NCBI RefSeq assembly: GCF_016026235.1
Contig: NZ_CP065613.1
Direction: 5' to 3' (one strand)
DNA from: Escherichia coli
GTDB taxonomy: Bacteria; Pseudomonadota; Gammaproteobacteria; Enterobacterales; Enterobacteriaceae
Length of the DNA stretch: 64,000 nucleotides
Position numbers and translations under genes: made by a program. The notes under the pieces were generated by a model, which was not told where the DNA came from, did no database searches, and saw only the letters and a program-made list of their open reading frames with translations. Below, piece by piece: positions 27,556 to 59,325 of the stretch (position 1 is the first letter of the stretch; the number at the start of each line of letters is the position of its first letter).

Positions 27556-28233
27556 TTAATAGGGATGCAACACATTACTTGTTTCGCAATGCCGCATACA
27601 TAACAGAATATCTGCGGCCTCCAACAACCCTGCATCAGAACTGACGCCCAGTTTCGACATCACATTAAATTTATGTGCACGGATCGTTTTGATATTGCGT
27701 TTAAGCTGCTCGGCAATTTGTGTCATTGAGTAGCCACGCGACATAAAGCGCAATATTTCTCTCTCCGTCGGGCTTAACGTCCGGCTTTGGTTAATGTACC
27801 ACTGATTGTTCAGTCGGTCGGTCGCCTGACGTACACCATTTAATGACAAAAAGAGTTCCTGATGAAAAATCTCCAGCGTTGACGCTTTACTTAATACACC
27901 GTCCAGCGGTGATGGCGACAATGAACCAATCAGCCGAGCTTCAATATCATCATCCGCAATAACTAAACGCTGGGTACGCGGAAACTTAATCGCCAGTTCA
28001 GTCAGGCAAGATAATCCCTCTCTGCGCTCACTTCTCATGGCAGAAAAAGAAAAAATGACCGCCGCAAACGAGATCCGCGACATGGCATCCTGAAATGACT
28101 CCTGACTGGTATAGGTATGGAGCTTGTAAGGGTTACCCGCAAACTTTCTGAATAAACTCTCAATACCGATACTGCTCATGACGCATTTTTCTATGAGTGC
28201 GACATTTCTCTTCTTAATTCGGCTGTGTTCCAT
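27556..28233 (-). CDS. bglJ: LuxR-type transcriptional regulator BglJ
   Basis: 225 aa, C-terminal LuxR HTH. Confidence 0.85.
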
Positions 28234-28916
28234 TCTGCGGCATCTCCATAAACAGAAGGCAAGTTAAGTTCTCTTGCACCCTGCGCGCTATTTATCCATG
28301 CATACATTTCAGCGTTGCTGTGAATTGCCAGTCGACGCATCGCACTGTTTTTTTGGGCGCTGATAGTTTTATTACTTTTCTTAAGCAACGAAGCTATCTG
28401 GTTGATGCCCCATCCTTTACCTAATAGCCGCAGTACCTTGCGCTCTGAAAGAGTGAGAATGACGGAGCGATAGCTAAAATCATGAGTTTCAGTCATTGCC
28501 GGAGAGGTCAGCATGGCGCTGATACGCTCTGCGTGCGTATTGCCGGAACGTACGGTCTTGACCAGATTCTCAATGGGTTCAACATCAGACAATAACGTCG
28601 CCGTAGGGCACATGAGCAATTCTACTGCCTGGGAATACCAGGAGCGTGACACCATGAAAACCCAGTGAATTTCCCGATATTGTGAGATTAAAGAATAATA
28701 ATGTTCACAAACAGAACGTGGATCTTCACTTTCACCGGCTAAATCAGCAATGACTAATCCGGAACGACGTAATTGTAATAAGGTAAGGTCCTCCGCAGAG
28801 GCGCTGGATATTATTTCATATTCAGGGAAGTGAGTCCTCATGACCTCTTTTAACCCTGCTTGCATAACAGGTATTTTACTGATAAAAATTCCATTTTTGC
28901 AGCATCCTGGCAACAT
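28191..28916 (-). CDS. yjjQ: LuxR-type transcriptional regulator YjjQ
   Basis: 241 aa, overlaps bglJ start, AT-rich upstream region. Confidence 0.85.
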
Positions 28917-29534
28917 ATTTCCTCCACATCCACTGTCTAAAAATCATGATGGTTTATTCAGGATATTCATTCCTTAAATGTTTCCAGCAAATTAATAGAT
29001 TAAGCGAATAAATTATCCTTAGCATTCACTTTCATATCAGCATACTCCTGCTGCACAACAACTCCACTGCGTGTGTCAGAAGGTTAGCATCAAATGATAA
29101 CCTGGTGAAATAGCCTGGAGACATTTAAAATATCTACATTAAGTTGTTAGGAATACTTAATGAAAAACAGAAATCACATTCATTTAATTTATAATTAAAT
29201 GATATCCCTTCCCGCAGAATGAAAAATCACACAACCAATATTTATTCAATGAAATCTGATGGTTTTAACTTGTTAACATTAAAAAACGTGCCCGGTTATC
29301 TATTATCCTGATTCGTAAAGGCCAAACAATAAATTCATTATAGTGATAATATTCATGTGATAGTTTGTTTGCGGCGAGAGATAATTCGCTTTTTATCACC
29401 GAGCTTGTCCCGATAACCAGGATTAATCAGCGCAATTTTGATCTTAACCTACCGCAAAACAACCGTGCTTCATGATACAAATGGATTCTCATTATCTGAA
29501 CAATACGCAGCACGTCTATGACAAAGGGCGAGTT

Positions 29535-30769
<1,235 letters not shown>

Positions 30770-45284: not shown

Positions 45285-45787
45285 TTACTGATAGTGTTTT
45301 ATGTTCAGATAATGCCCGATGACCTTGTCATGCAGCTCCACCGATTTTGAGAACGACAGTGACTTCCGTCCCAGCCTTGCCAGATGTTGTCTCAGATTCA
45401 GATTATGTCGCTCAATGCGCTGAGTGTAACGCTTGCTGATAACGTGCAGCTTTCCCTTCAGGCGTGATTCATACAGCGGCCAGCCATCCGTCATCTATAC
45501 TACGACCTCAAAGGCCGACAGCAGGCTCAGAAGACGCTCCAGTGTGGCCAGAGTGCGTTCACCGAAGACGTGGCCACAACCGTCCTCCGTATCCTGTCAT
45601 ACGCGTAAAACAGCCAGCGCTGACGTGATTTAGCACCGACGTAGCCCCAATGTTCGTCCATTTCAGCGCAGACAATCACATCACTGCCCGGTTGTATGCG
45701 CGAGGTTACCGACTGCGGCCTGAGTTTTTTAAGTGACGTAAAACCGTGTTGAGGCCAACGCCCATAATGCGTGCACTGGCGCGACAT
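45285..45787 (-). pseudogene. insB: IS1 insB, frameshifted and interrupted
   Basis: split into 86-aa and 69-aa ORF fragments; alignment to copy 1 shows a 1-bp deletion (cgtggccacaaccg vs cgtgcgcaacaaccg) and a stop (ctatactac). Confidence 0.7.
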
Positions 45788-45981
45788 CCGACGCCATTCA
45801 TGGCCATATCAATGATTTTCTGGTGCGTACCGGGCTGAGAGGCGGTGTAAGTGAACTGCAGTTGCCATGTTTTACGGCAATGAGAGCAGAGATAGCGCTG
45901 ATGTCCGGCAGTGCTTTTGCCGTTACGCACCACGCCTTCAGTAGCGGAGCAGGAAGCACATCTGATGGAAATGGAAGCCAC
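45706..45981 (-). CDS. insA: IS1 InsA (variant)
   Basis: 91 aa [37 protein letters not shown]. Confidence 0.8.
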
Positions 45982-46295
45982 GCAAGCACCTTAAAATCAC
46001 CATCATACACTAAATCAGTAAGTTGGCAGCATTACCAAATTTTAATTACACTTAAGGTGTATATTTTCTATGCAAGCCATCAATTAAAGAGGTGTAATGT
46101 TCTGATGACTATTTGTAATCGTTATACATTCTGACCTGGAGTCAGAAGGTATTTCTCTGTCTGTGTATTCGCAGGCAGTGTGGTTGATTACATGAAATTC
46201 AGTACATTTGTCCTTCTCGCCTGCCTTTCGTCATTACCGACGGTATTGAATTTCGTTTTCCCCATTGGGGTTCTCCGGACAAGGAGTTGTTTGTT

Positions 46296-57438: not shown

Positions 57439-57823
57439 CATTCTCCAGCGTCGCACTGCGCCAACCGCCATTATCCCAGACCAGATCAAACGTTAGCGAT
57501 TCATCGTCGTGATACAGCATTATCTCAAGGCTGATCGCCAGAGTGTGGCAGTACGCTTCTTTCAAATTAACCTGCAACGCCGCAATCCGTGGCTCATGAA
57601 ATAACAGTGCAGAACGCAGCTGACGGCAATACCAGCTCTGGAGATGTTTGTCGCTCGGGTTATGCACTTGCCACTCGGGCATGCCTGAAACAAGTAATGA
57701 CGGTAATGCCGAATGAGGAGAATTAAAAAGAGTGAGGAGATCGCTGCATACTGATTTACGCAGCGGTGACGTTTTATTGCCTGAAATTTCAGGTAAAACA
57801 GCCTGAAGTGATTGGCGCATCAT
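57431..57823 (-). CDS. iraD: anti-adaptor protein IraD
   Basis: 130 aa from [23 protein letters not shown]. Confidence 0.85.
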
Positions 57824-58494
57824 TTTGCGCACTCCTGACGTTTAGCAACATATGCGGCTTGCCCTGAACACCGGGCACCACTGTATTGATGCTCATTTTC
57901 CATAGCCATTCCCTTTTGTTCATTACATCCATGTCAGTCTGAGACAGGCCTGAATCCTGTCAGCAAAGTATAAAACCTTACTTGCCTATGAATATCTACT
58001 GACTTTTCAGGAAAAAAGTCATGATTTGATAAAAATCATCAAACTCAAAAAAAAACCGCTAGTATATTCTGAATATTCCGAATAGTTACGTAGATGAAAA
58101 TACTTGTCACCACCGCTACTTAATTCCGGTGGGAAATTATTTATTTCCGCATAATCAGCCATGTATTATTTAAAACAATTAGTTTGTAAATAATATAAAT
58201 TGATAACATATCAAATACATCAAAAATACCATTCACAGGCATTATTAATATAGACATCAATATAGCAACATCAAATTCCAATTAGTAATAAGATATGCTT
58301 TTAAATTGCATGCAAATAATTTTAAATGAGCGTTTTTTGATACTTTAGAGTGTTTCCCACCATTTAATATCACTGTGTAGAGTTGATATCACTACAACAG
58401 AAACATGCATGTCATTTGTTTACTTCTCTTTTTACTACAGAAAAATTTATCTATTTTTCTAAGCATCAGTGAAATACTCATAAAGGTAACTATT

Positions 58495-59325
58495 ATGTCT
58501 ATGCCATTAAGCAATGCCCTTCAGAGTCAAATTATTACAGATAATCACTTCCTTCATCATCCAAAAGTCGACAGTGAGTTAACACGTAAACATGAACGTG
58601 CACGCATGGATACGGAAAATATCTATCTTCCGCCTCTTGCTCGTGGCAATAACCATAATTACGATGGAAAAAGCGTTGTCGAAATTAGAAAACTTGATAT
58701 TAGTAAAGAGTCCTGGCCATTTAATTATGTGACAGAAACATGCAGAGAATTCAATGGTATTACAACAACAGGACGTATGCTCTATCGAAACTTGAAAATC
58801 ACCTCAGCTTTAGACGAAATATATGGTGGTATATGTAAAAAGGCGCATGCTGCCACAGAGTTAGCAGAAGGATTACGGCTAAATTTATTTATGAAAAGCC
58901 CTTTCGATCCTGTTGAGGACTATACAGTTCATGAAATAACATTAGGCCCTGGTTGCAATGTTCCTGGTTATGCCGGAACCACGATAGGATATATTTCAAC
59001 CCTTCCAGCTTCTCAGGCAAAAAGATGGACCAATGAGCAGCCAAGGATTGATATCTATATTGATCAGATAATGACGGTAACAGGGGTAGCAAATTCTTCC
59101 GGATTCGCCCTTGCCGCATTACTTAATGCTAATATTGAGTTGGGTAATGACCCAATAATTGGTATAGAAGCCTATCCCGGTACCGCGGAGATCCATGCAA
59201 AAATGGGATATAAAGTTATCCTGGGTGATGAAAATGCACCACTCAAACGTATGACTCTGCAACCGTCATCTCTTCCAGAACTGTTTGAATTAAAAAATGG
59301 TGAATGGAATTATATTGGTAAATAA
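58495..59325 (+). CDS. yjiC: uncharacterised protein YjiC
   Basis: 276 aa from MSMPLSNALQSQIITDNHF, AT-rich gene with long AT-rich upstream region. Confidence 0.8.
   Translation: MSMPLSNALQSQIITDNHFLHHPKVDSELTRKHERARMDTENIYLPPLARGNNHNYDGKSVVEIRKLDISKESWPFNYVTETCREFNGITTTGRMLYRNLKITSALDEIYGGICKKAHAATELAEGLRLNLFMKSPFDPVEDYTVHEITLGPGCNVPGYAGTTIGYISTLPASQAKRWTNEQPRIDIYIDQIMTVTGVANSSGFALAALLNANIELGNDPIIGIEAYPGTAEIHAKMGYKVILGDENAPLKRMTLQPSSLPELFELKNGEWNYIGK

What the first reader, a model, noticed from the sequence alone, without database searches (positions are those of the whole stretch)
28917..29534. AT-rich divergent control region between yjjQ-bglJ and yjjP
A 600-bp AT-rich spacer with A/T tracts separates the LuxR-type yjjQ-bglJ operon from yjjP-yjjB. 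It is typical of an H-NS-silenced, LeuO-activated locus and is the second-largest non-coding block in the window.
Basis: partly seen in the sequence, partly recalled or inferred. Interest (0 to 1): 0.15.

Follow-up and report, generated by a model that had tools for sequence, protein, structure and literature searches.

The report
Known H-NS-silenced yjjQ/yjjP control region
This is the well-studied AT-rich DNA spacer between the E. coli genes yjjQ-bglJ and yjjP-yjjB, which the silencing protein H-NS keeps switched off and the regulator LeuO can switch on; it is real, but it was described in 2008.

Summary
Window 28917-29534 is exactly the 618-bp spacer between yjjQ (28191-28916, minus) and yjjP (29535-30305, plus) of an E. 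coli chromosome. Its GC is 34.5% against 51.7% for the window.

One detail is off. By current RefSeq annotation it is the largest feature-free block in the window, not the second largest.

The interpretation matches published K-12 work by Stratmann et al. 2008, as quoted in papers I could read. H-NS represses both yjjQ-bglJ and yjjP, and LeuO activates yjjQ-bglJ. The window differs from MG1655 at only 7 of 618 positions, with no indels.

New here, all computational:
- The divergent gene order and an AT-rich spacer (32-44% GC) are conserved across Enterobacteriaceae.
- Conserved blocks mark a likely yjjQ -10 element, a central AT-rich core with H-NS-motif-like palindromes, and a near-invariant TTGATCT...TGnTAnAA module about 50-100 bp upstream of yjjP.
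- About 230 bp of the spacer is specific to Escherichia. The published mouse-gut adaptive IS insertions fall inside that stretch.

I found no hidden RNA or conserved small ORF. Verdict: already known, low interest.

The parts
28917..29534 (.). The 618-bp AT-rich divergent intergenic control region between yjjQ and yjjP (34.5% GC).
   Evidence: It is present in 5424 of 5426 complete E. coli genomes at 97-99.8% identity.
27556..28916 (-). The yjjQ-bglJ operon, encoding two LuxR/GerE-type regulators. yjjQ is 28191-28916 and bglJ is 27556-28233.
   Evidence: Operon status and H-NS/LeuO control are from the literature.
29535..30769 (+). The yjjP-yjjB operon, encoding ThrE-family proteins annotated as a putative succinate exporter. 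The two reading frames overlap by 10 bp.
   Evidence: The exporter role is quoted in PMC7236211.
28920..28925 (-). The yjjQ Shine-Dalgarno sequence (GGAGGA on the minus strand), conserved across genera.
   Evidence: Alignment of 53 spacers.
29012..29040 (-). Predicted sigma-70 promoter for yjjQ-bglJ, CTGATA-17-GATAAT, with an inferred start site near 29005. The -10 element (GGATAAT/GGATAAA) is conserved in Escherichia, Citrobacter and Salmonella.
   Evidence: Consensus scan. The same hexamers are listed for yjjQ-bglJ in the RpoD genomic-SELEX table of PMC3946193. Conservation is shown. This is a prediction and was not mapped here.
29117..29216 (.). Central AT-rich core, the lowest-GC block at 26%. 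It holds a motif conserved across genera (GTTAGGAATACTTAATG, 29147-29163) and a perfect palindrome (TCATTTAATT-TAT-AATTAAATGA, 29180-29202) whose arms each differ by one base from the H-NS high-affinity motif. It is a candidate H-NS nucleation site and central LeuO site.
   Evidence: (I5). Assigning proteins to it is inference.
29200..29430 (.). AT-rich segment of about 230 bp specific to Escherichia and absent from the shorter spacers of other genera. It contains the positions of the published mouse-gut adaptive IS1, IS2 and IS5 insertions, near 29424, 29350 and 29279.
   Evidence: IS positions are converted from the supplementary tables of PMC5094792.
29438..29481 (+). Conserved yjjP-proximal module. 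TTGATCT (29438-29444) is near-invariant, and an extended -10-like TGnTAnAA lies at 29473-29480 at a fixed spacing. The inferred yjjP start site is near 29488.
   Evidence: TTGATC also lies 80-98 bp upstream of yjjP in genera where pobA-pobR separates yjjP from yjjQ. The promoter role is inferred.

Best explanation
The spacer is the shared regulatory region of two divergent operons: yjjQ-bglJ (LuxR-type regulators) and yjjP-yjjB (ThrE-family putative succinate exporter). H-NS binds the AT-rich DNA, probably nucleating in the 26%-GC centre, and forms a nucleoprotein complex that silences both outward-facing promoters. The LysR-type regulator LeuO binds sites in the spacer and counteracts H-NS at the yjjQ-bglJ promoter.

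BglJ, acting with RcsB, in turn activates leuO. This makes a double-positive loop on paper, but H-NS dominates under laboratory conditions and keeps the locus off. Insertion sequences that land between the AT-rich centre and the yjjP core promoter raise yjjP expression and are selected in the mouse gut.

Shown in the literature for K-12: H-NS repression of both units, LeuO activation of yjjQ-bglJ, and the IS effect. Shown here: identity of the locus, its composition, near-identity to K-12, and conservation across genera. Inferred here: the exact positions of the promoters, of the H-NS nucleation site and of the LeuO sites.
For: - Locus identity and coordinates.
- Composition: 34.5% GC, in the lowest 1.2% of windows, with enriched A/T runs and TpA steps.
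- The H-NS motif TCGWTWAATT occurs 6 times at up to 2 mismatches. The window-wide density predicts 1.65. Three of these sites have a single mismatch.
[quoted passage not shown] - The spacer is flagged H-NS bound and carries an RpoD holoenzyme SELEX peak (PMC3946193). It also carries an RpoS holoenzyme peak (PMC5493296).
- IS insertions in the spacer recur in mouse-gut evolution, and a representative evolved clone showed a 2-fold rise in yjjP expression (PMC5094792; PMC4674774).
- The window differs from MG1655 by 7 substitutions in 618 bp, none in the predicted elements.
- The AT-rich spacer and divergent gene order are conserved in about 70 enterobacterial species.
Against: - The primary paper (Stratmann 2008) could not be read, so the mapped start sites and footprints were not compared with my predicted positions.
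- The promoter scan found only 6 promoter-like sites against 3.2 ± 1.7 expected from shuffles. On its own this is weak.
- The H-NS motif is not enriched in the window as a whole, with 171 matches against 177 expected. The local enrichment largely restates the AT-richness.
- PMC5025477 reports that LeuO activation of the native operon gave too little BglJ to activate its targets. The physiological inducing signal is unknown.
- No binding or expression data exist for this particular strain.
Confidence: 0.9

Rival explanations
1. The spacer hides an unannotated gene, either a small RNA or a small protein, and that explains its unusual length.
For: A promoter-like site (29279-29306, +) lies upstream of a terminator-like hairpin (29373-29390 plus a T-run). 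This would give a transcript of about 80 nt. Several ORFs of 21-44 aa exist in the spacer.
Against: - No Rfam family matches; the best hit is a spurious eukaryotic lncRNA at E = 0.83.
- Folding is no better than shuffled sequence, with z = -0.80 for 29310-29400 and z = -0.33 for the yjjQ leader.
- The candidate lies in the Escherichia-specific segment and is not conserved elsewhere.
- Neither MG1655 nor other RefSeq records annotate any RNA or CDS there.
- The one terminator-like hit is within the shuffle expectation of 0.5 ± 0.6.
Confidence: 0.04
2. The AT-richness is a scar of recent horizontal acquisition of yjjQ-bglJ, or a remnant of a mobile element or of a deleted pobA-pobR cassette, and not a selected regulatory feature.
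For: - yjjQ has lower GC than its neighbours, 43.8% against 52.7% for yjjP.
- YjjQ and BglJ evolve much faster than YjjP and YjjB, at 55-74% and 39-68% identity against 82-91% and 79-90% across non-Escherichia genera.
- About 230 bp of the spacer is specific to Escherichia.
- Some genera carry pobA plus an AraC-type regulator between yjjP and yjjQ.
Against: - The yjjB-yjjP / yjjQ-bglJ divergent order is conserved in all 75 loci of the genome scan that are long enough to show it, from Escherichia to Raoultella. The arrangement is therefore old.
- The spacer is AT-rich (32-44% GC) in every genus where the two genes are adjacent.
- The Escherichia-specific segment has no similarity to pobA-pobR, to other loci or to the rest of the window.
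- It is single-copy in E. coli genomes.
- This rival is also compatible with H-NS silencing, because H-NS targets AT-rich DNA whatever its origin.
Confidence: 0.05
3. It is an ordinary long promoter region controlled mainly by specific, still unidentified transcription factors, with H-NS binding incidental.
For: The TTGATCT motif at a fixed distance upstream of an extended -10-like element is near-invariant across genera. This looks like a specific factor site for yjjP. RpoD and RpoS holoenzymes bind the spacer on their own in vitro.
Against: Published genetics quoted show derepression in hns or hns stpA backgrounds and dominance of H-NS. A specific factor at yjjP would add to H-NS control, not replace it.
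Confidence: 0.03

Closest known systems
The yjjQ-bglJ / yjjP regulatory region of E. coli K-12 (Stratmann, Madhusudan & Schnetz 2008, J Bacteriol 190:926)
   Same: It is the same locus. The flanking genes are the same and the spacer is 618 bp in both. Sequence is 98.9% identical to MG1655 (7 substitutions, no indels).
   Different: The strain is different: the window's best matches are non-K-12 isolates at 99.8-99.9% identity, against 98.9% for MG1655. From memory, the 2008 paper describes a 555-bp intergenic region. That length corresponds to the older yjjP start at window 29472. Current annotation, and the cross-genus conservation found here, place the start at 29535.
The bgl operon regulatory region of E. 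coli (H-NS silenced; relieved by LeuO, BglJ-RcsB or IS insertion)
   Same: An AT-rich regulatory region silenced by H-NS. LeuO acts as an anti-silencer, and IS insertions upstream of the promoter raise expression (PMC9678765 abstract).
   Different: bgl silencing uses an upstream and a downstream H-NS site with looping, and needs CRP. Here a single spacer serves two divergent operons. The IS effect reported is modest, at 2-fold on yjjP.
The leuO promoter region (H-NS/StpA silenced, activated by BglJ-RcsB, autoregulated by LeuO)
   Same: It is the partner node in the same circuit. It is silenced by H-NS and linked to this locus by mutual activation.
   Different: leuO control involves BglJ-RcsB and LrhA sites and negative autoregulation. 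No BglJ-RcsB site has been reported, or was examined here, in the yjjQ/yjjP spacer.

Membership tests
E. coli yjjQ-bglJ / yjjP-yjjB divergent intergenic region (the specific known locus) | Flanked by yjjQ-bglJ on one side and yjjP-yjjB on the other, transcribed divergently. | tested here: met
   The ORFs and RefSeq annotation agree. The BglJ equivalog NF008548 scores 382.7 bits against a cutoff of 176, and the YjjB equivalog NF007391 scores 325 bits against 249. GerE and ThrE Pfam domains are present.
E. coli yjjQ-bglJ / yjjP-yjjB divergent intergenic region (the specific known locus) | Sequence collinear with, and near-identical to, the K-12 region on which the experiments were done. | tested here: met
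   611 of 618 positions are identical to MG1655 4602859-4603476, with no indels.
H-NS-silenced loci | AT-rich DNA well below the genome average, with A/T runs and TpA steps. | tested here: met
   GC is 34.5% against 51.7%. Runs of A/T bases are enriched 3.6-fold and TpA steps 2-fold.
H-NS-silenced loci | Presence of sequences resembling the H-NS high-affinity site (tCGwTwAATT, recalled from Lang et al. 2007). | tested here: inconclusive
   There are 6 matches at up to 2 mismatches in 618 bp, against 1.65 expected from the window density. Three have one mismatch and none is perfect. The enrichment is largely a consequence of AT content.
H-NS-silenced loci | H-NS occupancy, and derepression in hns mutants. 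| not testable with these tools
   Literature only, for K-12: plus the H-NS flag in the SELEX table.
LeuO-activated (anti-silenced) promoters | LeuO binding sites in the regulatory region, and induction by LeuO. | not testable with these tools
   Literature only. A TTAG-N-CTAA-like dyad at 29147-29163 is conserved across genera and could be a LysR-type site. This is conjecture.
Sigma-70 promoters (for the two predicted core promoters) | -35 and -10 hexamers at 16-18 bp spacing, or an extended -10 element. | tested here: inconclusive
   yjjQ side: CTGATA-17-GATAAT, 9 of 12 matches. It is the same site predicted in PMC3946193. yjjP side: a conserved TGnTAnAA without a recognisable -35. The scan total of 6 sites is not significantly above the shuffles (3.2 ± 1.7). 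No start-site data were available.

The most novel reading that the evidence does not exclude
The near-invariant TTGATCT motif sits at a fixed 32-bp spacing upstream of the extended -10-like element of yjjP. It is conserved from Escherichia to Raoultella, even where pobA-pobR separates yjjP from yjjQ. It could be the binding site of a specific, still unassigned transcription factor that controls the YjjPB succinate exporter independently of H-NS.

If so, the Escherichia-specific 230-bp AT-rich extension would be a lineage-specific silencing add-on, and gut-adaptive IS insertions would uncouple it from that conserved core promoter.
Probability: 0.25. Interest if true: 0.3.

Novelty: already known. 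Interest (0 to 1): 0.1.

Why it matters
The region matters as one node of the H-NS / LeuO / BglJ-RcsB silencing circuit, and as a recurrent target of adaptive IS insertions in the gut. Both points are already published. The comparative anatomy added here could help in designing promoter-fusion or footprint experiments. It comprises the conserved yjjP-proximal module, the conserved central core, the Escherichia-specific extension that receives the IS insertions, and support for the 29535 start codon. None of it changes the picture.

Tried and rejected
- **Hidden sRNA or structured leader.** The Rfam E-value scan of 28500-29900 gave nothing credible. Folds of the promoter-to-terminator candidate (29310-29400) and of the predicted yjjQ leader were no better than shuffles. 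Rejected.
- **Hidden small ORF.** Sixteen ORFs of 20 aa or more overlap the spacer. None lies in a conserved block and none is annotated in MG1655 or other RefSeq records. Rejected.
- **Longer 277-aa YjjP starting at 29472.** That ATG and the stretch downstream of it are not conserved and carry indels that are not multiples of three. Rejected in favour of 29535.
- **Escherichia-specific 230 bp as a pobA-pobR remnant or repeat.** blastn and tblastx against the non-Escherichia loci and against the rest of the window gave only chance-level hits. Rejected.
- **TTGATCT as a -35 hexamer.** The spacing to the conserved -10-like element is 32 bp, and nothing -10-like is conserved 17 bp downstream. Rejected.
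- **TTGATCT as an FNR half-site (TTGAT-N4-ATCAA).** The second half-site is absent in all genera. Not supported.
- **Primary literature.** I tried to read Stratmann 2008 (DOI and PMC2223560), Wiebe 2015 (PMC4507341) and Thomason 2015 (PMC4288677) for mapped start sites and footprints. None is held.
- **Repeats.** Direct and inverted repeats in the spacer are short two-copy matches apart from the 10-bp perfect palindrome I5. No repeat family was found.

Full report
**1. What is there**

The window is an E. coli chromosomal segment running from sltY to gntP, inverted relative to MG1655. The stretch 27400-30900 matches 5424 of 5426 complete E. coli genomes, the best at 99.9% identity. The annotated genes there are fhuF, bglJ, yjjQ, yjjP and yjjB.

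- ORF listing and RefSeq annotation of a collinear genome put yjjQ at 28191-28916 (-), bglJ at 27556-28233 (-), yjjP at 29535-30305 (+) and yjjB at 30296-30769 (+).
- BglJ and YjjB pass their NCBIfam equivalog cutoffs.
- YjjQ and BglJ carry the LuxR-type GerE domain. YjjP and YjjB carry ThrE and ThrE_2 domains.

The finding's coordinates, 28917-29534, are therefore exactly the 618-bp spacer between two divergently transcribed operons.

**2. Is it more than chance?**

- The spacer is 34.5% GC in a 51.7% GC window. Only 1.2% of 618-bp windows are as AT-rich, and they cluster at this locus and at one other place, 57.6-59.1 kb between iraD and yjiC.
- The lowest block, 29117-29216, is 26% GC.
- Runs of 6 or more A/T bases are 3.6-fold enriched and TpA steps 2-fold enriched. 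Pure homopolymer A or T tracts are only about 1.4-fold enriched.
- The low-GC zone continues about 200 bp into the 5' end of yjjQ.
- Using the RefSeq features of collinear genomes, the spacer is the largest feature-free gap in the window, at 618 bp. The next are 392 bp (osmY-prfC) and 376 bp (tsr-btsT).

**3. What is known about it**

The primary paper is Stratmann, Madhusudan & Schnetz 2008, J Bacteriol 190:926. It is not in the held library. Its conclusions are restated by the same laboratory and by others:

[quoted passage not shown] - Similar statements appear in PMC2646131, PMC4264507 and PMC12893673.
- The title of the 2008 paper itself names the divergent yjjP gene as regulated by H-NS and LeuO.
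- A genomic-SELEX survey lists an RpoD holoenzyme site in the yjjP/yjjQ spacer and flags it 'HNS'. It gives predicted promoters ATGAAA-17-TTTAAT for yjjP and CTGATA-17-GATAAT for yjjQ-bglJ (PMC3946193).
- An RpoS holoenzyme SELEX peak also falls in the spacer (PMC5493296).

From memory only, not verified here: the 2008 abstract says H-NS binds the centre of a 555-bp AT-rich intergenic region, distal to both promoters. It also says LeuO binds the centre, sites distal to the yjjQ promoters, and one site overlapping the yjjP promoter. A length of 555 bp equals 28917-29471, which is the spacer measured to the older yjjP start.

**4. Transfer to this strain**

The MG1655 spacer (4,602,859-4,603,476) aligns to the window without indels. 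It has 7 substitutions, at window 28945, 29071, 29222, 29268, 29342-29343 and 29407. None touches the elements described below. The K-12 results should therefore apply.

**5. Comparative anatomy (new here, computational)**

A scan of one genome per species with YjjQ returned 80 loci from Escherichia, Citrobacter, Salmonella, Klebsiella, Enterobacter, Kluyvera, Raoultella and others.

- All 75 loci long enough to show it keep the order yjjB-yjjP / yjjQ-bglJ.
- YjjP and YjjB are far more conserved than YjjQ and BglJ. Across the non-Escherichia genera they are 82-91% and 79-90% identical, against 55-74% and 39-68%.
- Where yjjP and yjjQ are adjacent, the spacer is 387-709 bp and 32-44% GC. The surrounding loci are 47-56% GC.
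- In Klebsiella, Raoultella, Kluyvera, Intestinirhabdus and some Citrobacter, a 2.6-kb insert lies between yjjP and yjjQ. It carries pobA (TIGR02360, 650 bits) and an AraC-type regulator. Pseudocitrobacter has a shorter 1.8-kb insert with pobA alone. The yjjQ-proximal sub-spacer stays AT-rich at 29-40% GC, and the yjjP-proximal one is 39-47% GC.

A MAFFT alignment of the window's spacer with 52 others shows six features:

- (a) The yjjQ Shine-Dalgarno sequence is conserved.
- (b) The minus-strand GGATAAT at 29012-29018 is conserved in Escherichia, Citrobacter and Salmonella. It is the -10 of the CTGATA-17-GATAAT site found by the scan and listed in PMC3946193.
- (c) There is a conserved central AT-rich block at 29110-29200. 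It includes GTTAGGAATACTTAATG (29147-29163) and, in E. coli, the perfect palindrome TCATTTAATT-TAT-AATTAAATGA (29180-29202). Each arm of the palindrome is one mismatch from the H-NS high-affinity motif.
- (d) An Escherichia-specific AT-rich segment of about 230 bp lies at 29200-29430. It has no similarity to anything else examined.
- (e) A near-invariant TTGATCT (29438-29444) is followed, at a fixed 32-bp spacing, by TGnTAnAA (29473-29480). This reads as an extended -10 element and implies a yjjP start site near 29488.
- (f) A conserved CAGGGC precedes the ATG at 29535. This supports the current yjjP start over the ATG at 29472.

TTGATC also sits 80-98 bp upstream of yjjP in the pobA-bearing genera, so this module travels with yjjP.

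**6. Link to published adaptive mutations**

IS insertions in the yjjP/yjjQ spacer recur when E. coli K-12 adapts to the mouse gut. They were seen in 57% of wild-type mice (PMC4674774). A representative evolved clone showed a 2-fold rise in yjjP expression aerobically, and the yjjP mutation carried a selection coefficient of about 0.03-0.05 (PMC5094792).

The supplementary tables give IS1 at -111, IS2 at -185 and IS5 at -256 from the yjjP start. These convert to window positions of about 29424, 29350 and 29279. All three lie inside the Escherichia-specific segment. They sit between the central AT-rich core and the conserved yjjP-proximal module.

This placement fits a core promoter at 29438-29488 that is uncoupled from an H-NS complex centred upstream. 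It fits less well with the SELEX paper's predicted yjjP promoter at 29161-29189, which these insertions would separate from the gene. That reading is inference.

Natural isolates also show IS1 events:

- in the yjjQ 5' leader, with target duplication 28924-28933 (strain DAX4);
- inside yjjQ at 28706-28714 (strain OkiPb01676);
- an IS1-linked deletion running from bglJ to codon 13 of yjjP (strain PS3Tanimalfeces2).

Only 26 of 5424 genomes lack a single match covering 80% or more of the 1-kb query.

**7. Alternatives examined**

- No Rfam family matches.
- There is no significant RNA structure in a promoter-to-terminator candidate or in the yjjQ leader.
- No small ORF is conserved or annotated.
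- The overall promoter-like site count, 6 against 3.2 ± 1.7, is not remarkable.
- Recent horizontal acquisition is unlikely given the family-wide synteny. The fast evolution and low GC of yjjQ-bglJ are nonetheless noteworthy.

**8. Verdict**

The feature is already described in the literature. I give 0.1, because the only additions are descriptive comparative details and one conserved motif of unknown function.

Noticed in passing
window 57642-59060 (iraD / idlP / ytiD to yjiC): This is the only other strongly AT-rich spot in the window, with a minimum GC of 28.8% over 618 bp. The gap at 58258-58494 is 27.4% GC. It is more AT-rich than the yjjQ/yjjP spacer and holds small annotated ORFs (idlP, ytiD and a 38-aa hypothetical). 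It is a likely further H-NS target.
   Followed up: no
window 29438-29481; also L013-L087, 80-98 bp upstream of yjjP: A near-invariant TTGATCT lies at a fixed 32-bp spacing upstream of an extended -10-like TGnTAnAA, across about 70 enterobacterial species. It is kept even where pobA-pobR separates yjjP from yjjQ. No factor could be assigned. It is not a -35 at this spacing and not a full FNR site.
   Followed up: partly
L075:1376-4000 (K. pneumoniae); also L013-L016, L030-L032, L039, L045, L047, L064, L069, L071, L079-L081, L084, L086. A shorter, pobA-only form is in L035-L037.: In Klebsiella, Raoultella, Kluyvera, Intestinirhabdus and some Citrobacter, a 2.6-kb cassette is inserted between yjjP and yjjQ and splits the spacer in two. 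It carries pobA (4-hydroxybenzoate 3-monooxygenase) and an AraC-type regulator. Pseudocitrobacter has a 1.8-kb form with pobA only.
   Followed up: partly
window 28191-28916 (yjjQ); L001/L002 (strain 720632), L006: yjjQ is intact in the window (241 aa). It is annotated as a pseudogene with an internal stop in the otherwise 99.9%-identical strain 720632, and is interrupted by IS1 in two bovine isolates. So yjjQ is lost repeatedly in nature.
   Followed up: partly
window 45285-45982 and L003 versus L004: An IS1 copy sits next to the brnT-brnA toxin-antitoxin pair. In strain 720632 the mdtM-yjiJ block between two IS1 copies is inverted relative to the window and to strain MLI023K1. This suggests an IS1-mediated inversion polymorphism.
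   Followed up: no
window 27556-28916 compared with 29535-30769, across L013-L087: The two sides of the spacer evolve at very different rates. Across non-Escherichia genera YjjP is 82-91% and YjjB 79-90% identical, against 55-74% for YjjQ and 39-68% for BglJ.
   Followed up: no
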